Positions 15,221 through 59,415 of a stretch of DNA of 64,000 nucleotides are shown piece by piece. This DNA is from a virus. How positions within the stretch are numbered: the first letter of the stretch is position 1; every line of letters begins with the position of its first letter. The translations under genes and the position numbers were made by a program. The stretch lies in IMG/VR virus record IMGVR_UViG_3300045988_117831. The stretch is one strand, 5' to 3'. Under the pieces are notes generated by a model, which ran no database searches, was not told where the DNA came from, and saw nothing but the letters and a program-made list of their open reading frames with translations.

Positions 15221-17796
15221 CAGTAGAGTATCTTAGTTGCGGAATCGTTTTGAGCGTCCTGGATTGCCGTAGTCAGCTGGTCTGCAGTCTGCTTGCTGAA
15301 TATCTCACGAGCCTCTTCCGGAGAATTCGCGCCGGTGACGTTGACCAACATGTCGATCCGACCGATGGTCAGCTCCTGGCCGCGCTCTGGAGCGCTCTTC
15401 AGAAGTTGCTCGCCGTACGTCCTGAGAATATCCATTTCTCGCGATGCGGCGTTCACCTTGGCCGTGGCTTCGGCAAGCTTGGCTGGAGACAGGAATACGT
15501 TGTTGGCTTCGGTCGCGGCGGCCTTGATCTCCTGTTGCTTGCCCAGGATGGCTTGGTTGTATCCGAACAGTAAGTCAGAACGGCTGATTTCGCGGCGCAT
15601 GATCTGGTTGGGGTTAACGCCGATCACTTGCGCGATGGCTCCTGCAGTGAGTTGAGCCTGGATGTTCTGCTTGGTCTCGCCGCGAACTTGATTCGGGAAC
15701 TTCCGGAATCCAGAATCTGCCCGGTCGGCCTCTTGACGTCTAGACATCTTGAGGATTTCGCCGTCGCTGCGGTCTGGCATGCGGTCGATGATGCGAATTT
15801 CCGGTCGCACAACCCTGTCGTCATATCGACGGGCTTCGCGGCGCTCATCTTCCTTCTTGCCCTGGTCTGGGGTTTCCAGTCGCCCGCCATCATAGGGACG
15901 AATGTCCATGTCGCCGCCTTCCGGGGCGAACGTCTCGTTGGCGACGGTCATGGCCGCAGCCTTCTGCTTGCGCTGAGCCTCTTCCATCAGCTCGATTGGA
16001 GCGCTCATTACCAAACCCGGATATGCGCGAGTCCTTGGGCCCCAGTTCTTCGGATCGAGTCCGCCATGATAGTATGTCAAGGCCAACCGCATGTCGCCAT
16101 TTGCTCGATCTAGGTTTTCACGCAGTAGGCGCGTTCCGCCGAGGATGTTCTGGCGAGGGTCATATACGTCAGTGATACCATACGCCTTGGCGATTTCCGG
16201 CATCAGTTGCATGAGGCCTTTCGCTCCGGCTTCGCTGGTGGCCCTGGCGTTGAATCGGCTTTCGGTGTATATGAGTTTCTTGATGTCCAGCTCAGGAATG
16301 TTGTACATCTTCGAAGCATCTTTGATGATATCGTTGATGTACGATGGAACGGTGACCGGCTCTGCCTTGCGCTGCGGCGAGAACATGCGATTGCGAAGAG
16401 ACTGGGCGCCGATTGGCTCGCCGAAGACTTGTCCGGCCGCGCCACTCTTCGACTGATCATAGATCGCGTGCGGATAGACGCCGGTTGCCCGCGAAGTCGG
16501 CGCGGTGCTTCCCATACCGACCGCCCGACCAATTTCCCCCGCCCAGGCTGCCCAAGCTTGGCGCTCGTCAACGGCATTCGCGAACGACGATACCGCGCCA
16601 CTGAACATGTTGATCGCCACCGCAAAATCATTGGTAGACTTCGTGGTCTGGTCAGCCAGCTTCTCTAGCTCTTTCATGGACTTAGTAGCCTTGTCCTGGT
16701 CTTCTTGTTTCTTGGCCAGGTCTTCGCTGGTTTGAGCGCCGGGAACCTTGTCCTTGTCGATGAGCCCTGATTCTTCCATGCCGCGACGAGTCCCCCACGC
16801 TGCCAGGCGACCGAGCAGGGCGCCGGGGCTGAGGAGGGATAGGATATCACTGCCAACGGTCGCCTTCCCGAGCACTCCATCTTCCCAACGGGATTTGGTG
16901 TCCTTCGCGAAGCTTTCCACTTCATTGGGAATAGCCTGGACTATCTTGTCGATGATTTCGATCAGCTTGGTGAACGCAGGCGCGAGCTTTTCGCCGACTC
17001 GGTTTTCCAGGGTGGTGAACGTCTGGTTGAGATTCGCCAGAGCATCGTTGAATTTCTGAATGTTGGACTCGCCCTGGACCCTGGACTGGAGTTCCGCAGT
17101 CGTCATCTCGGTGACTTTTCCCATGGCCGGGCCGATCTTAGCCAGGGTGCTCAGGTAGTCTCGCGAGACGCCAAGGGCATCAGCGTAGGCAGAAATTTCG
17201 TCCGGCTTCAGCTTGGCCATTTTCGTGGCCAGATCAGTAATGATGTCGTTGAGCGGCCGCATGCCCTTTTGGAAGCTCCCGACATCAACGCCGGCCATAC
17301 GCAGAATTCGCGCTTCCGGGCCGACTCGCCCGATATCGCGATAAGCACGCCGGAAAGTGTCTGCCAGATTTTTGGTCATCTCCGCGCCCTGCTCGCGGCT
17401 GATGGTTCCACCGGACTGGCGAACGAATTTTCTCTGGTACTCTTCCAAGCGTGCCGGGGCGATGCCGATGTCCATCGCCTGGATGCGCTGCTGATTGTAC
17501 TGGTCCCTGGTGTTCATGAACGCCTTGACGCCGGCCGCGACCAGGGCCACGCCAGTGGCGCCTATCGCCAGTTGCGCGTTCATCCCGCGAATCGCGCTCG
17601 TCACAGAATCGATCTGCGGAACGACTCGGCCGAGTTCAGTGGCCGCGCCGTCTGCGAAGTGGCGCAAATCCTGAAGGCCACTCGTCGATGCGCTGTTCAC
17701 GCGCCTGATCTGGTTCTGGAGGCGCTCCAGATTGCGCTCGGCTCTGGCAGTATCGGCCTCATACCGAAGTATGAATTCATCCAAATCACTAGACAT
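15220..17796 (-). CDS. tail tape-measure protein with internal soluble lytic transglycosylase (SLT) domain
   Basis: 858 aa and largely alpha-helical. SLT motif ...YTESRFNARATSEAGAKGLMQLMPEIAKAYGI... is encoded around 16086-16314. Confidence 0.85.
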   Translation of the reverse strand: MSSDLDEFILRYEADTARAERNLERLQNQIRRVNSASTSGLQDLRHFADGAATELGRVVPQIDSVTSAIRGMNAQLAIGATGVALVAAGVKAFMNTRDQYNQQRIQAMDIGIAPARLEEYQRKFVRQSGGTISREQGAEMTKNLADTFRRAYRDIGRVGPEARILRMAGVDVGSFQKGMRPLNDIITDLATKMAKLKPDEISAYADALGVSRDYLSTLAKIGPAMGKVTEMTTAELQSRVQGESNIQKFNDALANLNQTFTTLENRVGEKLAPAFTKLIEIIDKIVQAIPNEVESFAKDTKSRWEDGVLGKATVGSDILSLLSPGALLGRLAAWGTRRGMEESGLIDKDKVPGAQTSEDLAKKQEDQDKATKSMKELEKLADQTTKSTNDFAVAINMFSGAVSSFANAVDERQAWAAWAGEIGRAVGMGSTAPTSRATGVYPHAIYDQSKSGAAGQVFGEPIGAQSLRNRMFSPQRKAEPVTVPSYINDIIKDASKMYNIPELDIKKLIYTESRFNARATSEAGAKGLMQLMPEIAKAYGITDVYDPRQNILGGTRLLRENLDRANGDMRLALTYYHGGLDPKNWGPRTRAYPGLVMSAPIELMEEAQRKQKAAAMTVANETFAPEGGDMDIRPYDGGRLETPDQGKKEDERREARRYDDRVVRPEIRIIDRMPDRSDGEILKMSRRQEADRADSGFRKFPNQVRGETKQNIQAQLTAGAIAQVIGVNPNQIMRREISRSDLLFGYNQAILGKQQEIKAAATEANNVFLSPAKLAEATAKVNAASREMDILRTYGEQLLKSAPERGQELTIGRIDMLVNVTGANSPEEAREIFSKQTADQLTTAIQDAQNDSATKILY

Positions 17797-17799
17797 GAA

Positions 17800-18228
17800 T
17801 CACTCCGGCTTGTTGGCGAGTCCTTCGGCGATCTTCATTGCTGGACCAATGAGCTTGGACGCCTCGGCCAGAAATGCGATGGCCATCTGCGATCCGACTT
17901 GTTCCCAATAGTCCGGCCGGTCGGCGTGCGTGGCCGGGTCGATGCCATTGTGCTTGAGAACAGAGTTGAAAACCAGTTCCACGTTCTTCCAGTGGCCGAG
18001 GTGGTTGTTGATGACTGCCGCGGTGGTCAGCGGAATGCCGGTGTCATCGTCGCCAAGCAGCACTTTCGCATAGCCCAGGATTTCCATGGTGAAAGAGCGG
18101 CGGAAGTCGGAATCTTGGCTGACAGCGAATTCGACGAAACGGCGCTGGAGTTCCCAGCCATCCAATGCCGACCACGCCTCGATTTGTACGCGAGTTTGAC
18201 GGCCATCGGGAAGATTGATTTCAAGCAT
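17800..18228 (-). CDS. hypothetical protein (tail assembly region)
   Basis: 142 aa between the tube genes and the tape-measure gene. Confidence 0.5.
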   Translation of the reverse strand: MLEINLPDGRQTRVQIEAWSALDGWELQRRFVEFAVSQDSDFRRSFTMEILGYAKVLLGDDDTGIPLTTAAVINNHLGHWKNVELVFNSVLKHNGIDPATHADRPDYWEQVGSQMAIAFLAEASKLIGPAMKIAEGLANKPE

Positions 18229-19891: not shown

Positions 19892-20323
19892 TTACTTGCT
19901 GGTGGTTTTGCGAGAGGTGGCCTTGGCGGGAGCCGGGGCTTCCTCTTCAGCGGCCGGCGAGGCCGTTTCCTCGGCCTTTTCTACTGGGGCGGTAGTCGGG
20001 GCTTCCTCAGCGCCTTTCTCGTCGCCTTGGCCCGCTGCAGGAGCTTCCTGGGCGCCTTCCGGGGCCGATTCGGCCGCAGGAGCGTCGGTCGATACCGGAG
20101 CCGGGATGGTTCCGCCGTTGTCGACATTGGAATCGACGTTTACCGGGGGAACGGGAAGACCGGCCGGCGAGGAGTCGCCCTTGTCGGTGTTCTTTTCGCG
20201 GTCCAGGCCTTCCAGATCTTCGACAGACGGGTTAAACGAGGGCAGCGGGTCCAGGGGCGGCGGATTTTTGCCGTCCAGGAACAGTTGGGTGCCGTTGGCG
20301 TATTGGATGCGGATGGTACTCAT
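19892..20323 (-). CDS. hypothetical protein with Ala/Pro/Glu-rich low-complexity C-terminus
   Basis: Start MSTIRIQ, preceded by AGGAG and the upstream TGA. The listed 159-aa ORF extends further 5' with no RBS. Confidence 0.5.
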   Translation of the reverse strand: MSTIRIQYANGTQLFLDGKNPPPLDPLPSFNPSVEDLEGLDREKNTDKGDSSPAGLPVPPVNVDSNVDNGGTIPAPVSTDAPAAESAPEGAQEAPAAGQGDEKGAEEAPTTAPVEKAEETASPAAEEEAPAPAKATSRKTTSK

Positions 20324-20324
20324 T

Positions 20325-20675
20325 TCAAACTCCTGTGGTAACAGGCCCGTGGATGGTGATGACTTTCGCATCGACGCCGAAGACTTCCCCGGTTATGTCG
20401 ATGTCAAGCTGCTCGATGCCGGTCACATCCGGCGAGGATAAAATTGCATCCGCGATGGATTTGCGAGCGTCATCATAGCTTTTCTGCGGCGAGAAGATGT
20501 ATTCGAAATATCCCACACCGGAGTTCACATCGAAAATGTTTTCGCCGGTGCGCATGAGCATCGCCGCCCGAACGTCCTGGGCGCACGCTTCGACATCCCT
20601 GAGGATAACCATGTTTCCATTGTCGTCCAAAAGGATATCGTTGTTCGTCCCGGTTCTGATCGTTGATGTGCTCAT
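20325..20675 (-). CDS. hypothetical protein
   Basis: Start MSTSTIRT with RBS GAGGAAAGA and an ATGA overlap with the upstream gene. The listed ORF's N-terminal extension overlaps its neighbour. Confidence 0.5.
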   Translation of the reverse strand: MSTSTIRTGTNNDILLDDNGNMVILRDVEACAQDVRAAMLMRTGENIFDVNSGVGYFEYIFSPQKSYDDARKSIADAILSSPDVTGIEQLDIDITGEVFGVDAKVITIHGPVTTGV

Positions 20676-20995
20676 TCTTTCCTCGTGGCAAGCGCCTGAT
20701 ACTCGGCGAATTCGGCGCCGTCCAGATAGAACAGGTTGATGCCGTCGCCGAACAATGTCCAATCGGCGTCGCGGTCGAAGACGAAATTGCCATAGTCAGG
20801 TCGGTACTGATGGCTGTATTGGAGAAGAGGAATCCCGCCGAAGCAGCGGACCCCATGGCAAACGATCACGCCGTCGCGGCTGATATCGGCATTCATCATG
20901 TCCATGTTCTGGTACAGGCGAATCTTCCAATAGCTGCTACCGGCGTTAAATGAGATCGCTTGATTGGGGACTGCTGTCAGCGGAATTTTCTTCAT
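20672..20995 (-). CDS. hypothetical protein
   Basis: 107 aa. Overlapping start/stop with the tube gene. Confidence 0.5.
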   Translation of the reverse strand: MKKIPLTAVPNQAISFNAGSSYWKIRLYQNMDMMNADISRDGVIVCHGVRCFGGIPLLQYSHQYRPDYGNFVFDRDADWTLFGDGINLFYLDGAEFAEYQALATRKE

Positions 20996-27385: not shown

Positions 27386-28819
27386 TTACTCCCCCTTCAG
27401 GTAGCTGTCCAGCTCGGCGCACTGCGGAGCAGAACCGGCCGAATCCTGGGCTTTCGATTGACGGCTGGCCGCGCCGCGCGCGGCTTCGACACCTTTCAGG
27501 TACATGTCGAGCGCCAGTGCTTCCTGGCCCTTCGCGCAGCTGATATTCAGCTTCTTCACGCCGTAAACAGCGACTTCAGCCGAGTCCATAGCTCGGTGAT
27601 CGAACGCACCAACCACGGAGCTAAGACGCTTGTAGAGGCGATCTTTAGCAGCAATGTCGCGATAGAGACCGCGAATTGCAGCATCTTGCGCGTTCTTCTG
27701 TGCCATTTCAGGAAGTTCCTCGCTGTTATCCTTGCCCTCACCACCATCGTCGCTGGCGGTTTGCGCGCCGCTGAGGCTGCTCTGCTCTTCCAAGCCCTCG
27801 ACGACATCTTGACCTTCGCCATGCTCTTCGTCCGCCCCTTCGGCTACCGTGCCCTCCAGTCGAGCCAGAATGGCCTTGACTTGAGAGATCAGTTCGGCGA
27901 CTTCGCCTTCACCGGACATTTCGGATGCGGCACCTTCTTGATGCTCCGGCTCGACGGCGGCCACGGCCGGATCGACAACGGAAGGCTCCTCTTCCTGCTC
28001 TTCGTCATCCTTCTGAGCACCTTCCAGAGTCGGATGCTCGGTCAGGTGCTCGCTGTCGGTCGGTTCGGCCGGAGCTGCGCCTTCCTGATGCTCCGGCTCC
28101 TGCTCTTCTTCGCCCAGGAACTTCTGGACAGACGCAGATAGCTTCGGCCACAGGGCGCGCAACTCTTCGACCGCCGAGTCAGCAGCTTGCCCTACGCGCT
28201 GGACAGGGGGCTTCCGCTTGGCTTTCTTGAGACTCATTTCATTACCCTCATCGGATGGTCTGAAATCAAAACTGAGATGGTCAAAACACAGACCATCCAA
28301 TACTCTGGCCCCCGGCACACGACCCTCTTTTACCAGGGCAATGTGGTTGCCGCGCATCTTGTCCTGGACGACTTCATAAGGTGTTCCGTTCCAGATGCCG
28401 GGTTGCTCAGTGTAGCGGCAACTATAGCCTAGGGACAGGTCTTCTTTGCCCCTTTCCAGCTGATTCTGCATGTTGCGGGAATAGATGCGGATATCGCCGC
28501 GTGCCCATGGGGCTTCGTAGTAAGCGTTGGATGTGATGATGCCCTCCACCCCTTTGTCTTCGGGGGCCACGCTATCGTCATCATCGTCGAATCCCGACAG
28601 CATCTCATGCTCGTCGATCAACGGGAGATTCTTCAGAGATTCGATGTACTCCGGATCGCTGACGGCAGACTCCGGGCGATATACGTTGACAATCCGCGTC
28701 GGATCGCCCGGAAGACCGAGTTGACCAGCAGAATATTGGAAAACGCCATAAGAGCTGATCGGGCAGCCCTCTATGGTCATATATCCATTTTCGTCAATTT
28801 TTCTTTTCGACTTTGCCAT
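27386..28819 (-). CDS. prohead protease/scaffold-like protein (DUF2213-like N-terminal domain plus acidic coiled-coil C-terminal half)
   Basis: 477 aa. N-terminal ~190 aa (...GNHIALVKEGR...) resembles a head-maturation domain. The Glu-rich helical C-terminal half looks like a scaffold. Confidence 0.5.
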   Translation of the reverse strand: MAKSKRKIDENGYMTIEGCPISSYGVFQYSAGQLGLPGDPTRIVNVYRPESAVSDPEYIESLKNLPLIDEHEMLSGFDDDDDSVAPEDKGVEGIITSNAYYEAPWARGDIRIYSRNMQNQLERGKEDLSLGYSCRYTEQPGIWNGTPYEVVQDKMRGNHIALVKEGRVPGARVLDGLCFDHLSFDFRPSDEGNEMSLKKAKRKPPVQRVGQAADSAVEELRALWPKLSASVQKFLGEEEQEPEHQEGAAPAEPTDSEHLTEHPTLEGAQKDDEEQEEEPSVVDPAVAAVEPEHQEGAASEMSGEGEVAELISQVKAILARLEGTVAEGADEEHGEGQDVVEGLEEQSSLSGAQTASDDGGEGKDNSEELPEMAQKNAQDAAIRGLYRDIAAKDRLYKRLSSVVGAFDHRAMDSAEVAVYGVKKLNISCAKGQEALALDMYLKGVEAARGAASRQSKAQDSAGSAPQCAELDSYLKGE

Positions 28820-28939
28820 CGTTAATTCGAAGAGTCGTGGACTATGGCTGTATTATATACGCAGTACATCTAAGGGTAAATAAGCGGAACAATAATTAGA
28901 TGTAGCCGTGACTGTTAACTTACATTATAATTTGTATTA

Positions 28940-29300
28940 TGATCTAATTACCAGTTTCCTCAGCCGCGAAAATCCGGTAATTTGGTCTCGGAAACTTGAC
29001 GGGATTTGTCTAAGCCTACTGCCGCGAGGCTTTCAACTCCTAAACTAATTCAAATTACCAATTTACCGATTAAAAATTGAATTTCAATACGTCTAGAGCA
29101 TATAGATTGACGTTATATTATAACGTTACTTATAGATGAATTCTATTGGAACGTTACTTCTAATTTCCCAGGCTATATACTTTTGAAGCATGCGGCTAAA
29201 TCGGAAATTAGGAACTGGCTCTGTTAAAGCCTCGCGGCAGTAGGATTTCCAAATTACTGCTATTTTCCGTAAACGGTAATTTGCGGCTATCCGGACTAGA
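28940..29300. repeat. AT-rich quasi-palindromic element R1 (inverted-repeat arms around an AT-rich centre), related to R2
   Basis: Perfect 18-bp inverted repeat CCTACTGCCGCGAGGCTT (29018) / AAGCCTCGCGGCAGTAGG (29228). Core CGGAAACTTGACGGGATTTGTCTAAGCCTACTGCCGCGAGGCTTTCAA...AAATTACCAATTTACC is shared with 48494-48575. Confidence 0.7.
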
Positions 29301-29468
29301 ATTTTTAGTCAGAATCCAGATTTTTCTCAGTATCATCGGCCAAAGCCATCAAGATGGCGAAGCCGATGATTGCCAAATCGATGGCGGCAAACTTCAGGCT
29401 GAAGAATCCGCCGTGAATATTGGCCCTGATTACATCGACCACGAGTCGGCGCCGGCACGTCTTGCGGT

Positions 29469-29675
29469 TCATTTCACGAGCCTCGACAGAGAGTCCACCA
29501 GGGCGCGAAGATCGGCGACGAGCTCAGGCGAACAATCTTTCGCCGTCTTCCCTTTCTCACTGCGCTGGATGGAGTAAGCGATGGCCGCAGCCTGCTTTGG
29601 GTCCTTACCGGCTTCGATTTCCCGCTTGATGTTTTCAGAACGAGCCTCATTGGAATTGCCATGAACTAACGGCAT
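29469..29675 (-). CDS. hypothetical small protein
   Basis: 68 aa between the minor head protein and the AT-rich element R1. Confidence 0.4.
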
Positions 29676-36619: not shown

Positions 36620-37057
36620 ATGAAAAAGTTCTGTGTCGACATCACTAATGGTCTGGCCGGCTTCATCATCTGGGGCGGCGCAATCGTCCTGGCTGCTACC
36701 GTCTTCGTCATCGGCCCGCTGGCCCTCCTGCTGACCGGCGCCTGGGTTGTGTGTACGTCCGTAGTGTTCGCCCTCTGGTTCGCCGTCGCCGGCATCTACG
36801 AAGAGTCGCAAAAGCAGACCGAGTATCTTAAATCCCTGGTGTCGCTCCAGGCGTGTGAACGCGGCATCGGCTACGGCCCAGGAGACGCCGGTTGCAGCGC
36901 TAGCGCTCCGGCCGTTCCCGTAGAGCCCAAGCTCAGCCATCCCAAACTGAAGCCGGGCGCACAGCTCGCGGCCGCTGTCTTGTTCTTTGCCGCCCTCATC
37001 CTCTTGCTGGTAGCAGGTGATTGGATCTGGAATTTCTTCCAGTCGATGCCGAAATAG
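36620..37057 (+). CDS. hypothetical integral membrane protein (about 3 TM helices)
   Basis: Start MKKFCVD after AAGGAATCTGAAA. The upstream part of the listed ORF overlaps the previous gene. Confidence 0.5.
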   Translation: MKKFCVDITNGLAGFIIWGGAIVLAATVFVIGPLALLLTGAWVVCTSVVFALWFAVAGIYEESQKQTEYLKSLVSLQACERGIGYGPGDAGCSASAPAVPVEPKLSHPKLKPGAQLAAAVLFFAALILLLVAGDWIWNFFQSMPK

Positions 37058-37065
37058 TGGAAGAA

Positions 37066-37143
37066 AGTGCTTTACTTCCATTCTGAATGAAGGCAGAATA
37101 GCTCCATTGAAATGCGAAACCCTTCAGACAAAAGGAACCGACC
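37066..37143 (+). promoter_or_regulatory. repeated promoter/leader copy A
   Basis: GTGCTTTACTTCCATTCTGAATGAAGGCAGAAT...CAAAAGGAACCGACCATG. Confidence 0.55.
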
Positions 37144-40831: not shown

Positions 40832-40865
40832 AACCGTTCGTCGGTGAACATAATTTTATTGTTAA

Positions 40866-40938
40866 TACACTTTACTTCCATTCTGACCAACGGCATAATC
40901 TCTTCATCGAAACGAACAAACACCTGGAGGGTAAGACG
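40866..40938 (+). promoter_or_regulatory. repeated promoter/leader copy B
   Basis: CACTTTACTTCCATTCTGACCAACGGCATAATCTCTTCATCGAAACGAACAAACACCTGGAGG. Confidence 0.6.
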
Positions 40939-41097: not shown

Positions 41098-41185
41098 TCA
41101 ACATTCGGATGCGGAAATGCCTTCCATGGGAGGAAATATTCCTGACGGGCATACCGTTCGTCCACTTTGAGAAATATTTCACAAT

Positions 41186-41263
41186 TCTGCTTTACTTCCA
41201 TTCTGAATAGCGTCATAATCTCTTCATCGAACGCGAAACACTCCAAAACAGAGGAACGCAGAA
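41186..41263 (+). promoter_or_regulatory. repeated promoter/leader copy C
   Basis: CTGCTTTACTTCCATTCTGAATAGCGTCATAATCTCTTCATCGAACGCGAAACACTCCAAAACAGAGGAACGCAGAAATG. Confidence 0.6.
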
Positions 41264-41777: not shown

Positions 41778-42464
41778 ATGTCTAGCATAGTGTACTTCCA
41801 GTACATCACCGGCGCCATTCAGGTTCCTCTGGAAGTCGAAGTGGAGGCCGGCCAGCTGCAAATGGTCAATGTAGAAGTCGATCCTGATGGCTTCCGCAAA
41901 TTCTGGCCTATTGCCGATAGTCTCCTCTGGGATCCAGAGGAGTGCAAGTTTCTGCCTCGCTACAAATCCAGATACATGACCGATGCCGCAGCGTATGCCG
42001 ACCAGGCAGTGCTCGCCTTCGCAGCCGGCCAGTACTACCTGCGGATGGAGTCGAAGGAAGAGCGTAAAGACCCGGATGACGATCTGCATGCGATTGAGCT
42101 TTCAGAAATGCGAGAGACGTGCAGAAAGGCGAAAGTCGAAAAGCATCAGCTGGTGCGCGAAAATACTCGCCTTGACGAATGCCTTCAGAACTCCATCGCC
42201 CGCGAAAACCAGGTTGGCGAGACAAATCGCCAGCTCCAGCTCAGAATCCAGGATTTGGAGGCAGAGCTAGCATCGCAGAAGGCGCTCCGGGAAGAGCTGG
42301 ACAAGAGCCTGGAAGGCAGCATCAAGAACGCCAATGCCCAGCACAAGACGGCGTGCGACGCCATGGAGCAGCTTACAAAAGCCAGGAAAGAAGCCGATTT
42401 CTATCGCCTCGGTATGCAGAAAGTAGCGGCTATCGCAAACGCTAAACCTTCTGAGGATAACTGA
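41778..42464 (+). CDS. hypothetical protein with C-terminal coiled coil
   Basis: Start MSSIVYFQY after GAGGA with 7-nt spacing. The listed ORF starts 36 nt earlier with no RBS. Confidence 0.5.
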   Translation: MSSIVYFQYITGAIQVPLEVEVEAGQLQMVNVEVDPDGFRKFWPIADSLLWDPEECKFLPRYKSRYMTDAAAYADQAVLAFAAGQYYLRMESKEERKDPDDDLHAIELSEMRETCRKAKVEKHQLVRENTRLDECLQNSIARENQVGETNRQLQLRIQDLEAELASQKALREELDKSLEGSIKNANAQHKTACDAMEQLTKARKEADFYRLGMQKVAAIANAKPSEDN

Positions 42465-47480: not shown

Positions 47481-48131
47481 CTAAATGGGGTTGGCGCGGT
47501 CTTCCTCGGTCGGTTCCGGAGACGGAGACGGGAAATCTCCCTCTTCACCTTCCGGCACATAGCCATTGGCTTCGGCCGCAGCAGCGACGGTCGCGGTCTG
47601 AGCCTCGGCTTCTGATGCGTAGAAATCGGCCAAACCGCGACCGATCCGGGTCTTGCCCGACTCGTCCACGAACGTGATTTCAGCCAGAACGTTCAATTCC
47701 TTGATGGCCGACAGACGGCTGGAGTCCTTGACGGTGGGGTCACGAACCATTTGGAGGAGTTCGTGGAGCGCCGTCTTTGGATTCCACAAATCGGACGTTT
47801 TGGTCGCGTTCAACTTGGCCTTGAACTGCTTGCGATAGTACGGGTTGGACTCCATCGCGAAGATGCGGGCCTGCGCGGGACCGTCCATATGCTCCTCGCC
47901 CCAGATGGCCCGGAAGACCCGCCAGGAGCTGTAACCTTGGACGCGCAGGTCGATGTACAGGTCGAATCGCTTTTGGTTGATCGCCGCGAAATGCGGGTCT
48001 GCGAATTCCTGTGGCGTGACTAGATCGTCGGGGCTGTAGAATTTGGTCATTTGGTGCTGCGTCCCTGAGTTCGATTCTGGAGTCGTCGTGGTGGCTTGGT
48101 TGGCGGATGGCCCTGGTGCTCTGCGCGACAC
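47481..48131 (-). CDS. candidate terminase small subunit
   Basis: 216 aa. TPQEFADPHFAAINQ...LRVQGYSSWRVFRAIWG...PAQARIFAM loosely parallels the conserved AGYS...A helix-turn-helix region of P27-type small terminases. Adjacent to the palindromic element R2. The start is probably the internal MTKFYSPDD. Confidence 0.35.
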   Translation of the reverse strand: MSRRAPGPSANQATTTTPESNSGTQHQMTKFYSPDDLVTPQEFADPHFAAINQKRFDLYIDLRVQGYSSWRVFRAIWGEEHMDGPAQARIFAMESNPYYRKQFKAKLNATKTSDLWNPKTALHELLQMVRDPTVKDSSRLSAIKELNVLAEITFVDESGKTRIGRGLADFYASEAEAQTATVAAAAEANGYVPEGEEGDFPSPSPEPTEEDRANPI

Positions 48132-48340
48132 TGAGTATGGCGCGATTGTACTATGGGGCCAGGGATCGCGTCTATGGGCTGCTTGTGGGTGGCCTGTAGG
48201 TCTGGGTGGGTTTGATGGTGAATGAGTGTTAGGTGGTGTTATAGGATGTTATATGGGCGGTCTGCTGGTGGGTGAGGGTCGAGTCGGCGGTTGGTGGGTG
48301 AGGATGGCGGTGAGGGTTTGGATTGAGTGTTAAATCGAAT
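48130..48340. repeat. G+T-skewed iteron-like region
   Basis: GGTGGGTGAGG twice (48268, 48294). GGTGAGGGT twice. Many GGTG/GTGGG units on the + strand. Non-coding. Confidence 0.6.
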
Positions 48341-48479
48341 GTTAGAAATATGTCCAGCTGAGCGATTCTGTCGCGCTCCCAAATTTCCGGTTCCGTTCGT
48401 CGAGTTTTGGCACTTGCCGCTTAGTCCGCCGTGGTGTTGCCGCGACCCATGGATTGGAAGTCCGGAAGTTTCCGGCGAC

Positions 48480-48790
48480 CCTGCCGCGAACTGGCTGGAA
48501 TCGGAAACTTGACGGGATGTGTACAAGCTTAGTGCCGCGAGGCTTTCAAATACTAAAGTATACCAAATTACCAAATTACTATTAATTTAATTAATTTTAA
48601 AGATAGGTAACGTCCGTGATAGATTTTTTCTATTAGGATTGTGCAATCGATTTTCGCTGTAGTATACTTTTGCGGCTGCATCCGAAACCGGAAATTATCC
48701 GTTAAAGCCCTTCAAACCCACGCGGCACTAAGGCTAGGCCCTAATTACCGGTTTCGTAAATTACCGGTAAGCTCGACGCGGCCGACCCCA
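48480..48790. repeat. AT-rich quasi-palindromic element R2, paralogous to R1
   Basis: CGGAAACTTGACGGGATGTGTACAAGCTTAGTGCCGCGAGGCTTTCAAATACTAAAGTATACCAAATTACCAAATTAC. Inverted partners CTTAGTGCCGCG (48527) / CGCGGCACTAAG (48719). AT-rich centre 48570-48660. Confidence 0.7.
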
Positions 48791-48958
48791 AAAATCCAGT
48801 CAGAATCGGCGATTTTCCACAATTCATCCAATCACCACACAAAATCCTCGATCCACCGTCCACGAACTTTCCATAACGCAACATCACCACCCCATCCTAA
48901 TTACCGGATAGCTTCCGAATCTCACTCGTCCACCACCGAAATTAATGTACGCCGCACC

Positions 48959-48990
48959 AAAGAAAAAGACCGCCCGAAGGCGGCCTAGTC
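48959..48990 (-). terminator. minus-strand terminator downstream of the primase-helicase gene
   Basis: Minus strand: GGCCGCC-TTCG-GGCGGTC followed by TTTTTCTTTGG. Confidence 0.55.
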
Positions 48991-49011
48991 CAAGTACACT
49001 CCGCCACTACA

Positions 49012-56662: not shown

Positions 56663-57556
56663 ATGGAACAGAAAGACCAGAACGAGCAGACCCAAGGCGA
56701 AGAGCTGACCAAGGAACAAGCAGCCGCCCTGCGCAAGGCCGAGAAGGCCGCTGAGCGTCAACGTAAAGAGCGCGAGCGCGCCGAGAAGGCCGAGGCCAAG
56801 GCCAAGGAAGCCGAACAGAAGAAAGCCGAGCGCGAAGAGAAGCGTAAGGCCGAGCGCGAGAAGAAAGAAGCCGAGCGCGCCGAGAAGGCGAAGGAAAAGG
56901 CCGCAGCCAAGGAAGCCGAGCGCGCTGAAAAGGCCAAGGCGAAGGAAGCCGAGCAGGCCGAGAAGGCGAAGGCGAAGGAAGCCGAGCGCGAGCAGAAGAA
57001 GGCCGAGAAGGAAGCCGAGCGCGCCAAAAAGGCCGAAGAGAAGAAGGCCGCCCAGGAAGCTCAGAAAGTAGCTCGCGAAGAAGAGCGCAAGCGCCTGGCC
57101 GAGCAGAAGAAGGCTGAGCGCGAAGCCGAGAAGCAGCGCCGCAAGGAAGAGCAGGAAGAGCGCCGCAAGAAGGCCGAAGCCCGCCGCGAAGACCTGAAGT
57201 CCAACGGCTCGCGTCGCCCCCGCGCCACTCACTTCATCCCGACCGGCGACGGCCATGGCACTCCGCAGGCCTTCTCGACTCGCGGCAAGGTGTTCGCATA
57301 CATCAACGAGCACTGCACCGTTGGTGAGCCGGTCGAAATCGAATCCTTCGGCGATAAGGTGGCCCATCTTCTCTATGGCACCTCGGTCCGCAGCTACCTG
57401 AGCAAGCTGGAAATCATGGGCTGGGTCGATCTGGTTGCCATCGCTTCGAAGGAAGACGAAGCTGGCCAGGGCGATGACGAGAAGGCCGATGACGAAGGCC
57501 AGGAGCACGGAGGTGAAGATCAGGGCGCCGATGGTTCCGAAGGTGAGGAGGAGTAA
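56663..57556 (+). CDS. Lys/Ala/Glu-repeat protein (KAKEAE-type tandem repeats) with acidic C-terminal tail
   Basis: 297 aa. About 170 aa of ...AEKAKAKEAEQAEKAKAKEAEREQKKAEKEAERAKKAEE... encoded by imperfect ~33-bp DNA repeats. Globular C-terminal region, then DDEKADDEGQEHGGEDQGADGSEGEEE. Confidence 0.6.
   Translation: MEQKDQNEQTQGEELTKEQAAALRKAEKAAERQRKERERAEKAEAKAKEAEQKKAEREEKRKAEREKKEAERAEKAKEKAAAKEAERAEKAKAKEAEQAEKAKAKEAEREQKKAEKEAERAKKAEEKKAAQEAQKVAREEERKRLAEQKKAEREAEKQRRKEEQEERRKKAEARREDLKSNGSRRPRATHFIPTGDGHGTPQAFSTRGKVFAYINEHCTVGEPVEIESFGDKVAHLLYGTSVRSYLSKLEIMGWVDLVAIASKEDEAGQGDDEKADDEGQEHGGEDQGADGSEGEEE
56790..57130 (+). repeat. imperfect ~33-bp tandem DNA repeats encoding the KAKEAE protein repeats
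   Basis: Recurrent GAGAAGGCGAAGGCGAAGGAAGCCGAGCGCG-type units. Confidence 0.6.
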
Positions 57557-57675: not shown

Positions 57676-58677
57676 ATGATTCCTGATCAGAAAGTAATCA
57701 TCGTAGGTGCCGGACTCGCCGGACTGATCGCCGCGCATCGCTTTCCTCAAGCCCAAATCATCGACGCGGCGACGCCGGAGAACAAGGAGCGCCACAACGC
57801 ACTTCTGCGATTCCGCTCGCCAGTGATTGGCCAACTCACCGGCATCCCGTTCCGCAAAGTCACTGTACACAAAGCTATCTACATCGACGGCGAGTTCATT
57901 TCCCAGCCGCGCATCGACCACTGCAACATGTACTCCAGGAAAGTAACGGGCGGCCTGTCGGACCGGTCCATCTGGAATCTGGCGACTGAAAAGCGTTGGA
58001 TCGCACCGGCCGACTACTATGAGCAGCTGGTGGCTAAGCTTGCGAATCGTATCACTTGGAGCCGTCCTTTCGACGCCTCTTTCTTCCAGTATCTTCGCCG
58101 GCAAGATGACCACGTGAATATCATCAGCACCGCGCCGTTCCGCGCCAATCTGGCTGCGGCAGGGCTGGACCTGGGAATCGACCCGTCATTCGGTGAAGGA
58201 ACCTCCATCATCGTGAGTCGATACAAGCTCTCCATCCCCTGTGATGTCTTCCAGACCGTGTATTTCCCTGGTCCTAAAGTGGGAACGTTTCGAGCGTCCA
58301 TCACCGGTGATACTCTGATCGTCGAATCCATCACTAAAGGGATAGTGGAGACTTTAGATGGTAAAATCGAAACCATCGAATGGGACAGCGACTGGGATAT
58401 GGATTACGTTTGCGCGGCCTTCGGCATCAGAAGGAAACAGCTCATCGAAGATGGCGAGCCGACCATCCAGACCAAAGGCAAAATCATTCCGCTCGGTCGC
58501 GACGAGCGCGAATCCATGATCTGGAATCTCACCCATGAGGCTGGCATCTTCTCGCTCGGCCGGTTCGCTACCTGGCGCAACGTCCTTCTGGATGATCTGG
58601 TTTCGGACATGGACGTCATCGAGCGCCTGATGACTTCTTCGTCTTATCAGAAGGCCAAGAAAATGTTCGTGAAGTAA
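57676..58677 (+). CDS. FAD/NAD(P)-binding Rossmann-fold oxidoreductase-like protein (UGM / amine-oxidase-like)
   Basis: Start MIPDQK after AAGGGA. VIIVGAGLAGLIAAH dinucleotide-binding motif. C-terminal GRFATWRNVLLDDLVSDMDVIERL resembles the C-terminal FAD-contacting segment of that fold. Confidence 0.5.
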   Translation: MIPDQKVIIVGAGLAGLIAAHRFPQAQIIDAATPENKERHNALLRFRSPVIGQLTGIPFRKVTVHKAIYIDGEFISQPRIDHCNMYSRKVTGGLSDRSIWNLATEKRWIAPADYYEQLVAKLANRITWSRPFDASFFQYLRRQDDHVNIISTAPFRANLAAAGLDLGIDPSFGEGTSIIVSRYKLSIPCDVFQTVYFPGPKVGTFRASITGDTLIVESITKGIVETLDGKIETIEWDSDWDMDYVCAAFGIRRKQLIEDGEPTIQTKGKIIPLGRDERESMIWNLTHEAGIFSLGRFATWRNVLLDDLVSDMDVIERLMTSSSYQKAKKMFVK

Positions 58678-58685
58678 TTTACAAA

Positions 58686-58764
58686 AGTGCTTTACTTCTG
58701 GATCAGGTGGGCGTAATATTCCCTCATCGAAACGCGAACCCCTTCAACCAAAAGGAATCGACAA
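58686..58764 (+). promoter_or_regulatory. repeated promoter/leader copy G
   Basis: AGTGCTTTACTTCTGGATCAGGTGGGCGTAATATTCCCTCATCGAAACGCGAACCCCTTCAACCAAAAGGAATCGACAAATG. Confidence 0.6.
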
Positions 58765-59213: not shown

Positions 59214-59415
59214 TATCAAAGCAGTCATTTCGCGCACCACCGAGCGCGATTCTATGGGGTCTCCGTACATCCATGAGTCTTACCGCACTTTCTCTTTCTC
59301 CGCTTCCACCACACTGGTCGCGGCCATCGACTGGGTGAAAGGCCAGTGTCCGGAAATCGTTGACATGCTCATCTACGAGCCGGAAACCGTAGCTGCTCAG
59401 CAGGAGCGCTATTGA
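59197..59415 (+). CDS. hypothetical small protein
   Basis: 72 aa, overlapping start/stop. Confidence 0.45.
   Translation: MGRIINIKAVISRTTERDSMGSPYIHESYRTFSFSASTTLVAAIDWVKGQCPEIVDMLIYEPETVAAQQERY

What the first reader, a model, noticed from the sequence alone, without database searches (positions are those of the whole stretch)
28940..29300. R1, an AT-rich quasi-palindromic element interrupting the late structural operon and sharing a ~75-bp core with a second copy 19.5 kb away
A 650-bp non-coding gap (28820-29468) sits inside an otherwise tightly packed minus-strand structural array, between the minor head/small gene and the protease-scaffold gene. It holds a large imperfect palindrome.

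- The arms carry a perfect 18-bp inverted repeat: CCTACTGCCGCGAGGCTT at 29018 and AAGCCTCGCGGCAGTAGG at 29228.
- Partial inverted CCGGTAATTTGG / CCAAATTAC motifs are also present.
- The centre (29060-29200) is AT-rich.

The left arm core, GGAAACTTGACGGGAT-TGT-TAAGC-TA-TGCCGCGAGGCTTTCAA-CTAAA-AAATTACCAA, recurs almost verbatim at 48494-48575 (R2).

Two paralogous structured non-coding elements could be internal late promoters with an activator-binding core, replication origins, packaging (pac) recognition sites, or binding sites for a phage DNA-binding protein. None is established here.
Basis: seen in the sequence. Interest (0 to 1): 0.7.

Follow-up and report, generated by a model that had tools for sequence, protein, structure and literature searches.

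The report
Conserved twin of the phage packaging-start site
R1 is a real, non-coding, AT-rich palindromic element that is a sister copy of the DNA region where this Pseudomonas phage starts packaging its genome. The same two-copy layout recurs in three other phage genera, so the second copy very probably has a function, which is not yet known.

Summary
The window is almost a whole Pbunavirus (PB1-like) Pseudomonas aeruginosa phage genome, closest to KPP12.

**Observation.** It holds. R1 carries a perfect 19-bp inverted repeat, the longest in the window, around a 32%-GC centre. It is homologous to R2 over about 280-330 bp (E=5.5e-22), not only over 75 bp.

**What R2 is.**
- It lies just upstream of the small-terminase gene terS (PDB 7UXE).
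- Five GenBank Pbunavirus records begin at one identical base in its centre.
- That base is also where 36 of 161 long JG024 nanopore reads start.
- R2 therefore holds the preferred packaging-start cut. It also holds the mapped σ70 promoter P040.

**What R1 is.** R1 is its paralogue, sitting upstream of the head protease-scaffold-capsid operon and that operon's mapped promoter P014.

**Conservation.** Pantoea Kylevirus, E. coli Wifcevirus and Burkholderia BcepF1 have the same pair at the same two positions. Each genus has its own short iterated motif, found almost only in its two copies. So one phage-specific DNA-binding protein probably recognises both copies.

**Who binds.** I favour the small terminase. 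A replication initiator or a transcription regulator remains possible. R1 shows no sign of being cut, so its own role is inferred, not shown.

**Novelty.** A new variant of a known kind.

The parts
28940..29300 (-). R1: quasi-palindromic, AT-rich non-coding element, given in gene orientation (minus strand). It is the paralogue of R2.
   Evidence: Alignment with R2. blastn E=5.5e-22 to R2 and self-inverted E=6e-7. Intact in one piece in 295 of 299 Pbunavirus records.
29015..29033 (.). R1 arm, promoter-distal in + coordinates and downstream in gene orientation: CCTACTGCCGCGAGGCTTT.
   Evidence: Perfect 19-bp inverted repeat with 29226-29244. TGCCGCGRGGBTT with at most one mismatch occurs only in the four R1/R2 arms.
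29226..29244 (.). R1 arm, upstream in gene orientation: AAAGCCTCGCGGCAGTAGG.
   Evidence: Across eight Pbunaviruses the two arms differ at only 0-2 of 19 positions; one paired G:C to A:T change is seen.
29034..29225 (.). R1 AT-rich centre (32% GC) with internal dyads (AACGTTATAATATAACGT).
   Evidence: Composition. Highly conserved among eight Pbunaviruses. Homologous to the R2 centre, but the block matching the R2 cut site is diverged.
28945..28996 (.). R1 outer motif cluster: TAATTACCAG, CCGGTAATTTGG, and the local dyad AGTTTCC...GGAAACT around GCCGCGAA. It is followed by the conserved core GGAAACTTGACGGGAT (28990-29005).
   Evidence: The same dyad and core occur in R2 at 48466-48518.
29050..29070 (.). 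R1 inner tandem motifs AAATTACCAA / AATTTACCGA.
   Evidence: R2 has the counterpart at 48563-48582 (D8).
29249..29283 (.). R1 motif cluster on the other side: CCAAATTAC and CGGTAATTTG.
29060..29087 (-). Predicted σ70 promoter TTGAAA-N16-TAAATT, at the position homologous to R2's P040.
   Evidence: Pattern scan. Annotated as a predicted promoter in LMA2. No transcription start was reported here for phage 14-1, so it is unconfirmed.
28852..28880 (-). σ70 promoter TTTACC-N17-TATAAT for the protease-scaffold-capsid operon. It lies just outside the palindrome.
   Evidence: Its sequence equals 14-1 P014, start site 13257, unit TU014 covering gp22.
27386..28819 (-). Head maturation protease / scaffold gene downstream of R1.
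   Evidence: PHROG 3778, E=5e-228. Homologues follow copy B in Kyle, ManiWeber and BcepF1.
29305..29472 (-). Small conserved ORF (gp21/ORF20-like) upstream of R1.
   Evidence: PHROG 5611, E=5e-32. Annotated in LMA2, PB1 and 14-1.
48380..48910 (-). R2: sister element between the VapE-like helicase gene and terS.
48649..48650 (-). Preferred virion DNA end (packaging-start cut): ...GCGAAAAT | CGATTGC... on the minus strand.
   Evidence: Five GenBank records begin at this base. JG024 position 59,376, where 36 of 161 reads longer than 30 kb start (PMC10913387), maps to the same base. About 75 nt around it are nearly invariant in seven Pbunaviruses.
48528..48549 (.). R2 arm CTTAGTGCCGCGAGGCTTTCAA.
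   Evidence: 86% complementary to 48711-48732. The arms mismatch at 3-6 positions in other Pbunaviruses.
48711..48732 (.). R2 arm TTCAAACCCACGCGGCACTAAG.
48557..48585 (-). σ70 promoter TTAATA-N17-TATACT (extended -10) inside R2. It equals 14-1 P040 and gives terS a leader of about 500 nt.
   Evidence: Start site 59399 and unit TU045 covering gp76.
47481..48050 (-). terS, the small terminase gene (189 aa).
   Evidence: PDB 7UXE 'Small terminase', E=2.5e-125 over the full length. E217 TerS is described in PMC9611059.
49012..50751 (-). VapE-like helicase / 'primase' gene upstream of R2. It is followed by a terminator at 48967-48986.
   Evidence: Pfam PF05272, E=3e-22. PHROG 4630. Terminator.

Best explanation
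R1 is the second member of a two-copy family of protein-binding DNA elements. The other member, R2, is the phage's packaging-initiation (pac) region.

**Common layout**
- Short iterated motifs: CCGGTAATTT / AAATTACC and TGCCGCG.
- A pair of inverted arms.
- A bendable or meltable centre of about 190 bp at about 32% GC.

**Shown**
- R1 and R2 are homologous.
- R2 sits directly upstream of terS.
- A preferred virion DNA end maps to one base in R2's centre.
- Mapped σ70 promoters lie inside R2 and just outside R1.
- The pair recurs at the same two positions in four genera (upstream of terS, and upstream of the head protease). Each genus has its own motif, confined to its two copies.

**Inferred**
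- One phage-encoded, sequence-specific protein binds both copies. I favour the ring-shaped small terminase.
- At R2, the resulting nucleoprotein complex directs the large terminase to cut at GAAAAT|CGATTGC and to start a headful series running towards terS.
- At R1, the platform is kept but the cut-site block differs. R1 would then act as an uncut auxiliary terminase-binding site. It could be a weak secondary pac. It could instead be a site that ties terminase occupancy to the adjacent protease-scaffold-capsid promoter.
For: **Identity and homology**
- Pbunavirus identity.
- R1-R2 homology, E=5.5e-22 (alignment).

**R2 as packaging start**
- terS matches PDB 7UXE and lies immediately downstream of R2.
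- Five records start at window base 48649.
- The JG024 long-read starts map to the same base.
- About 75 nt around the cut are nearly invariant.

**Relatives**
- The Pantoea phage Kyle record begins, with a 3.6-kb terminal repeat, in the AT-rich centre of its own terS-upstream copy.
- Paralogous pairs: Kyle E=1e-28, ManiWeber E=5e-19, BcepF1 E=3.6e-19.
- The gene after copy B is the protease homologue in each.
- terS adjacency of copy A holds in every lineage checked. Helicase adjacency does not.

**Motifs**
- Confined to the two copies: Kyle 10/10, ManiWeber 8/8, BcepF1 3/3 and 8/8, window 7/8.
- The TerS N-terminal part is the more variable half across genera.

**Exchange between copies**
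- The JG024-type R2 upstream half is closer to R1 (81 of 100 identical) than to the window-type R2.
Against: - No binding data exist for any protein on R1 or R2. A review states that E217 TerS showed no appreciable DNA binding in vitro (PMC9611059). I could not see which DNA was tested.
- There is no sign that R1 is cut. The JG024 study reports only the R2 site. 295 of 299 records carry R1 in one piece.
- Some of the five identical record starts could come from authors re-linearising to a relative. JG024 is the only direct read-level evidence.
- Xanthomonas Carpasina and Aeromonas Gekk3-15 have terS homologues but no detectable second copy.
- Iterated motifs flanking an AT-rich centre next to a helicase gene fit a replication origin equally well.
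- In ManiWeber and BcepF1 the protease-side copy has more motif copies than the terS-side copy. That is odd for a merely auxiliary site.
Confidence: 0.42

Rival explanations
1. R1 and R2 are two replication origins of the iteron type. A phage initiator binds the iterated motifs and melts the AT-rich centre. The VapE-like helicase encoded just upstream of R2, or the RepB-type primase, would be that initiator. The packaging end in R2 either overlaps the origin by chance or arises because the terminase loads on an origin-derived DNA end.
For: - Short repeats on both sides of a ~30%-GC centre is the classical origin layout.
- R2 lies directly after the VapE-like helicase gene and its terminator. 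BcepF1 has the same order. Gekk3-15 has a prim-pol gene there.
- Genus-specific motifs are what initiator-iteron co-evolution produces.
- A review reports that E217 TerS does not bind DNA appreciably.
Against: - In Kyle and ManiWeber no helicase homologue lies within 5-9 kb (Kyle) or about 2.7 kb (ManiWeber) upstream of copy A, while terS is always adjacent.
- The defined end in the centre of copy A in two genera needs an extra assumption.
- If both copies were origins giving ends, R1 should also show read starts.
- Published GC-skew minima for a Pbunavirus are given at 42,280 and 52,360 in the replication-gene region. R2 lies near 59.4 kb and R1 near 13 kb in PB1/14-1-type coordinates; I did not verify Banzai's numbering.
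- The window's skew shows no clear turn at R1 or R2.
Confidence: 0.25
2. R1 and R2 are upstream control regions of two co-regulated σ70 promoters, one for protease-scaffold-capsid and one for terS. A phage regulator or a host nucleoid protein that prefers AT-rich DNA binds them. This keeps these near-consensus promoters silent early and active late.
For: - Mapped start sites P014, beside R1, and P040/P041, in and after R2.
- In Kyle, ManiWeber and BcepF1 the protease-side copy is followed by a near-consensus -35/N17/TATAAT promoter before the gene. The terS-side copy is too in Kyle and ManiWeber; I did not inspect it in BcepF1 (read from the sequences).
- Earlier authors already predicted σ70 promoters here.
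Against: - The other mapped σ70 promoters of the structural genes in 14-1 (P013, P015-P019) have no such element.
- A 300-bp palindrome with 6-10 motif copies is far more than known phage late activators need.
- This reading does not explain the DNA end in R2.
Confidence: 0.15
3. The palindrome acts as a structure. It is either a long hairpin in read-through mRNA, serving as a processing or insulation site between the portal and protease messages, or a cruciform in DNA.
For: - Strong predicted folding on both strands, z = -6 to -7.5.
- R1 arms stay nearly perfectly complementary.
- One paired G:C to A:T change and one G:T(U)-compatible change occur among eight phages.
Against: - Any palindrome gives such z-scores, on both strands.
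- The covariation rests on a single event in related phages. PSA25 and WP1 carry uncompensated changes.
- R2 arms mismatch at 3-6 of about 20 positions and are a mixed type in four of seven phages.
- There is no Rfam match.
- No terminator or processing-derived RNA was reported here in 14-1.
Confidence: 0.07
4. R1 and R2 are copies of a small non-autonomous mobile element (MITE-like) with terminal inverted repeats.
For: Two dispersed copies of about 300 bp with inverted-repeat structure and AT-rich composition.
Against: - Only two copies exist.
- Both sit at the same syntenic positions in four genera while the sequences differ between genera.
- R1 is present in essentially all 299 Pbunavirus records.
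- I looked for neither target-site duplications nor empty sites; none came to notice.
Confidence: 0.02

Closest known systems
pac regions of headful phages P1 and SPP1 (P1: pac flanked by hexamer clusters; SPP1: pacL-pacC-pacR at the start of the small-terminase gene). Recalled from established literature, not re-read here.
   Same: For R2: it lies next to terS. Clusters of short repeats sit on both sides of a central region that holds the cut. It overlaps a promoter of the terminase gene. It gives a headful, permuted genome with a preferred series start.
   Different: - A second homologous copy about 19.5 kb away in the head-gene cluster is not a feature of P1 or SPP1 pac.
- terS is far from terL in the linear map.
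- TerS binding has not been shown.
- The arms are long inverted repeats.
T4 gene 16 / gene 19 pac-like sequence pair (Black's terminase synapsis model). Recalled from my own knowledge.
   Same: Two homologous sequences at separate places in the late-gene region, one of them associated with the small-terminase gene. They are proposed to be bound by the small terminase. Reviews compare E217 TerS to T4's in behaviour.
   Different: - The T4 sites are short and lie inside genes, not 300-bp non-coding palindromes.
- T4 ends are essentially random.
- The T4 model itself is not established.
Iteron-type replication origins: SaPI ori 3' of its rep gene; P4 ori/crr; SPP1 oriL/oriR; HSV oriL/oriS palindromes. 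Recalled from my own knowledge.
   Same: Short lineage-specific repeats flank an AT-rich centre. The element lies next to a helicase or primase gene (R2). There is more than one homologous copy per genome. The layout is palindromic with divergent promoter-like boxes.
   Different: - No initiation has been mapped.
- Adjacency to the helicase is not conserved across genera, whereas adjacency to terS is.
- A virion DNA end maps to the centre.
Previously annotated features of PB1-like phages: predicted σ70 promoters in the ORF20-ORF21 gap (LMA2, JG024), 14-1 start sites P014 and P040, and the putative JG024 pac at 59,376.
   Same: These are the same sequences as parts of R1 and R2.
   Different: In what I could read (and the cited texts), none of these sources notes three things: that the two gaps are homologous, that they are palindromic motif-bearing elements, or that the pair is conserved in other genera.

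Membership tests
pac (packaging-initiation) region of a headful phage | A defined or preferred virion DNA end maps inside the element. | tested here: not met
   For R1: the JG024 study reports no preferred read start there, and 295 of 299 records carry R1 unbroken. For R2 the feature is met: five records and the JG024 reads start at window 48649.
pac (packaging-initiation) region of a headful phage | Located in or next to the small-terminase gene. | tested here: not met
   R1 lies upstream of the head protease gene, about 19 kb from terS. R2 meets it: terS starts about 600 nt downstream of the cut.
pac (packaging-initiation) region of a headful phage | Sequence homology to, and the same motif set as, the element that holds the cut. 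| tested here: met
   E=5.5e-22 to R2. Arms, iterated motifs and core are shared.
pac (packaging-initiation) region of a headful phage | Bound by the small terminase and required for packaging. | not testable with these tools
   This needs EMSA or footprinting and genetics. The only published statement found is that E217 TerS bound DNA poorly in vitro.
Iteron-type replication origin | Repeated short motifs flanking an AT-rich, easily melted region. | tested here: met
Iteron-type replication origin | Adjacent to, or inside, the initiator gene. | tested here: not met
   R1 is flanked by head genes. R2 follows a VapE-like helicase gene, but this adjacency is absent in Kyle and ManiWeber.
Iteron-type replication origin | Replication starts there, or strand composition turns there. 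| tested here: inconclusive
   The window's cumulative GC skew shows no clear turn at 29 kb or 48.6 kb. Published Pbunavirus skew minima lie elsewhere.
σ70 promoter region | -35/-10 match with an experimentally mapped start site. | tested here: inconclusive
   P014 (TTTACC-N17-TATAAT, 28852-28880) is mapped in 14-1 but lies outside the palindrome. The promoter-like site inside R1 (29060-29087) has no mapped start. The homologous R2 site is the mapped P040.
Structured non-coding RNA | Match to a known family, or covariation that supports pairing. | tested here: not met
   No Rfam hit at gathering score or at E<=1. There is one covarying pair, set against uncompensated changes.
MITE-like mobile element | Many copies, variable presence, non-syntenic insertion sites. 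| tested here: not met
   Two copies only. Fixed syntenic positions in four genera.

The most novel reading that the evidence does not exclude
The two elements form an obligate pair. The packaging (or replication) machinery must engage both the terS-side copy and the head-operon copy before it commits. This could happen by bridging the two sites on a concatemer. It could also happen by using occupancy of the head-operon copy to tie production of protease, scaffold and capsid protein to the availability of terminase. That would be a conserved two-site checkpoint linking capsid supply and DNA packaging in a family-level group of myoviruses.
Probability: 0.12. Interest if true: 0.8.

Novelty: new variant of a known kind. 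Interest (0 to 1): 0.6.

Why it matters
[quoted passage not shown] Their packaging signal has been disputed, their small terminase is reported not to bind DNA, and no origin is known. Engineers need to know two things. First, the preferred packaging start lies in a defined motif-bearing palindrome next to terS. Second, a conserved twin sits in front of the capsid operon. This tells them which non-coding DNA must not be touched.

**Substrates for experiments.** It also gives two natural substrates, R1 and R2, for testing what the small terminase or the helicase actually recognises.

**General interest.** The pair is kept in four genera while its recognition motif changes. That is a clean case of a DNA-protein recognition system evolving in step at two sites.

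Tried and rejected
- **tRNA and Rfam scans**: nothing found.
- **16-mer search of IMG/VR with the core**: 32 loci.
- **ncRNA idea:** the only 14-1 ncRNA candidate in the ONT-cappable-seq tables is elsewhere, at 62561-62469. No terminator was reported in R1 or R2.
- **Folding**: strong on both strands and in both chemistries, so it does not discriminate.
- **Arm covariation as proof of pairing**: one paired change, several uncompensated ones, and mixed-type arms in R2. I rejected it as decisive.
- **'Compensatory' R1 versus R2 arm differences seen in the window:** not maintained in JG024, SPM-1, Kraken or DRL-P1.
- **TerS N-terminal similarity against motif similarity across genera**: too weak to use.
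- **Xanthomonas Carpasina and Aeromonas Gekk3-15**: no second copy found, so the pair is not universal among terS homologue carriers.
- **The E217 terminase paper (PMC10026623)** is not held. I could not see which DNA was used in the binding tests.
- **Coding:** single-base indels among phages, and no family hits for the region, argue against the small ORFs that some records annotate inside R1.

Full report
**What the window is.** The 10 kb around the finding matches Pseudomonas aeruginosa PB1-like myoviruses (genus Pbunavirus) at 99% (KPP12, vB_PaeM_1648). The R1 gap itself is found in 299 phage records, 295 of them in one piece. The 64-kb window is therefore almost a whole Pbunavirus genome, with the structural genes on the minus strand. 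R1 lies between a small conserved ORF (29305-29472, PHROG 5611) and the head maturation protease/scaffold gene (27386-28819, PHROG 3778).

**Checking the observation.**
- The inverted repeat is real and slightly longer than reported: 19 perfect base pairs at 29015-29033 and 29226-29244. It is the longest perfect inverted repeat in any 485-bp stretch of the window (next longest 12 bp). No shuffle of the gap exceeded 13 bp in 500 trials.
- The centre 29034-29225 is 32% GC, against 55.6% overall.
- A relaxed blastn of R1 against the whole window finds only R2 (48496-48770; 65% over 305 nt; E=5.5e-22) and R1's own inverted image (E=6e-7). The pairwise alignment runs through both arms, the centre and the outer motifs.
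- So the shared unit is the whole element of about 300 bp, not a 75-bp core.
- The gap is 485 bp, not 650 bp, because 29305-29472 is a conserved gene.
- Single-base indels among eight Pbunavirus R1 copies, and the absence of tRNA or Rfam matches, fit non-coding DNA.

**What is already annotated here.**
- LMA2 and JG024 carry predicted σ70 promoters in this gap.
- ONT-cappable-seq of phage 14-1 (Putzeys et al.; supplement of bioRxiv 10.1101/2023.10.13.562163) maps a start site, P014, whose upstream sequence is the window's TTTACC-N17-TATAAT at 28852-28880. This lies just outside the palindrome and drives the protease gene.
- The same study maps P040, whose upstream sequence is the R2 stretch TTAATA-N17-TATACT at 48557-48585. 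Its transcript begins at the R2 arm and reaches gp76 after a leader of about 500 nt.
- The homologous site in R1 (TTGAAA-N16-TAAATT, 29060-29087) has a degenerate -10 relative to P040 and no reported start.
- No terminator and no ncRNA candidate were reported in either gap.

**What R2 is.**
- The gene just downstream of R2 (47481-48050) is the small terminase. It matches PDB 7UXE, 'Small terminase', over its full length at E=2.5e-125. This is the E217 TerS, a decamer whose gene lies far from terL and which reportedly bound DNA poorly in vitro (PMC9611059).
- Five GenBank Pbunavirus records begin at exactly the same base, CGATTGC..., which is window 48649 on the minus strand. They are fHoPae01, TH15, BrSP1, E2005-C and PA11P1.
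- Independently, Ipoutcha et al. (PMC10913387) found that 36 of 161 JG024 nanopore reads longer than 30 kb start at position 59,376 ±5. They also saw a coverage dip just upstream and proposed a pac site. That position maps to the same base.
- About 75 nt around this cut are almost invariant in seven Pbunaviruses, while the upstream half of R2 is highly variable.
- R2 therefore holds the preferred packaging-series start, about 100 nt upstream of P040 and about 600 nt upstream of terS. Packaging runs towards terS. Other reports of headful, permuted genomes agree with this.

**The pair is conserved in other genera.** A tblastn search with TerS finds homologues at about 35-43% identity in other genera.

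| Phage (genus, host) | Copy A | Copy B | Paralogy | Iterated motif |
|---|---|---|---|---|
| Window (Pbunavirus, Pseudomonas) | R2, upstream of terS | R1, 485-bp gap before protease | E=5.5e-22 | CCGG[TA]AA[TC]T: 7 of 8 in window |
| Kyle (Kylevirus, Pantoea) | upstream of terS | 515-bp gap (17571-18085) before protease homologue | E=1e-28 | GGTTATT: 10 of 10 in 25 kb |
| ManiWeber (Wifcevirus, E. coli) | upstream of terS | 415-bp gap before protease | E=5e-19 | GATACGGAT: 8 of 8 in 14 kb |
| BcepF1 (Bcepfunavirus, Burkholderia) | 20772-20939, between a VapE-like helicase gene and an unannotated terS homologue | 410-bp gap before protease | E=3.6e-19 | AACTAAG: 3 of 3 in 50 kb and 8 of 8 in 12 kb |

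- In Kyle, base 1 of the record, the left end of a 3.6-kb terminal repeat that contains terS, falls in the AT-rich centre of the terS-side copy.
- Each genus has its own motif, confined to its two copies. In the window, TGCCGCGRGGBTT occurs only in the four arms.
- Xanthomonas Carpasina and Aeromonas Gekk3-15 have terS homologues but no detectable second copy. The pair is therefore widespread but not universal.

**What this implies.**
- The two copies stay alike within a genome while differing between genera, and their short motifs occur almost nowhere else. The simplest reading is that one phage-specific, sequence-specific protein recognises both copies and that both are functional.
- Exchange between copies also occurs. 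The upstream half of JG024-type R2 is closer to R1 (81 of 100 identical) than to the window-type R2.
- The arm differences between R1 and R2 that look compensatory in the window are not kept in other Pbunaviruses. R2 arms mismatch at 3-6 positions there.
- R1 arms stay nearly perfect, with one paired change, one G:T-compatible change and two uncompensated changes.
- Folding is strong on both strands, as for any palindrome.
- A structural (RNA or cruciform) requirement is therefore possible for R1 but not demonstrated.

**Which protein, and what does R1 do?** These steps are inferred.
- I favour the small terminase. Copy A is next to terS in every lineage examined, whereas a helicase homologue is adjacent only in Pbunavirus and BcepF1.
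- The virion end lies in the centre of copy A in two genera.
- Repeat clusters on both sides of a central cut, overlapping a terminase-gene promoter, is how I recall the P1 and SPP1 pac regions being built. I did not re-read that literature here.
- On this reading R1 is a retained terminase platform whose cut-site block has diverged. It is not, or only rarely, cut. It may serve as an auxiliary loading site, or it may couple terminase occupancy to the adjacent P014 promoter.

The main rival is a pair of iteron-type replication origins.
- The architecture fits.
- R2 follows a VapE-like helicase gene.
- E217 TerS reportedly does not bind DNA.
- In ManiWeber and BcepF1 the protease-side copy carries more motifs than the terS-side copy.

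A regulatory-region reading is also open. In all four genera a near-consensus σ70 promoter follows the protease-side copy; one also follows the terS-side copy in the window, Kyle and ManiWeber, and I did not inspect that side in BcepF1. A mobile-element reading is excluded by copy number and synteny.

**Novelty.**
- Known before: the predicted and mapped promoters, the identity of terS, and a suggested pac position in JG024.
- Not found in the searchable literature: the homology of the two gaps, their motif-bearing palindromic build, the coincidence of record starts with the JG024 read starts, and conservation of the pair with genus-specific motifs in four genera.
- I rate it a new variant of a known kind (a pac- or origin-type recognition element). 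It is of moderate to high interest because it gives concrete substrates for an open question in a therapeutically important phage group.

Noticed in passing
window 48132-48330 and 48800-49000: R2 is flanked by strongly strand-biased tracts. In gene orientation there is a G/T-rich stretch upstream and a C/A-rich, G-poor stretch of about 300 nt (CCACC repeats) that forms most of the terS leader. The Aeromonas phage Gekk3-15 gap upstream of its terS homologue has the same layout (L046 15904-16826).
   Followed up: partly
window 48644-48655: The packaging-start cut falls inside an ATCGAT palindrome (AT|CGAT). PB1-type R1 copies carry an ATCGAT at a different place in their centre (AATCGATATGCT), while the window's R1 has AATCTATATGCT.
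   Followed up: no
L058 (BcepF1, NC_009015) 20088-20498, minus strand: A small-terminase homologue (35% identity, E=1e-23) is encoded here but not annotated. The record annotates short plus-strand ORFs (.059/.060) over it.
   Followed up: partly
L039 (JG024) 527-1108 and other records: Several GenBank records annotate 'hypothetical proteins' across R1 or R2, for example JG024 PJG24_078 over R2 and 'hypothetical protein (x3)' over R1 in BL3, Victoria and PaCCP2. Indels and the element structure suggest these are over-calls.
   Followed up: partly
window 37051-37111, 40851-40911, 41171-41231, 58666-58698 (+ strand): A repeated family GCTTTACTTCC...ATAATCTCTTCA. It corresponds to the early σ70 promoters mapped in 14-1, for example P001, P006 and P028.
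   Followed up: partly
window 56700-57500: A dense array of imperfect 33/45-nt repeats that encode a Lys/Glu/Ala-rich low-complexity protein segment. The syntenic gene is called TolA-like in the Aeromonas relative.
   Followed up: no
L045 (Serratia KKP 3709) and E. coli ECP_WGS_SA1 (H177): The records begin 377 nt (KKP 3709) and roughly 350 nt (ECP_WGS_SA1, from tblastn coordinates) upstream of their terS homologues. ECP_WGS_SA1 and Kyle carry terS twice (terminal repeat). The genome end next to terS therefore seems general in this group.
   Followed up: partly
window 29305-29472: The small ORF upstream of R1 reads as 55 aa here but is annotated as 46 aa in other Pbunaviruses, so the start codon choice differs. 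Its product looks like a small membrane protein.
   Followed up: no
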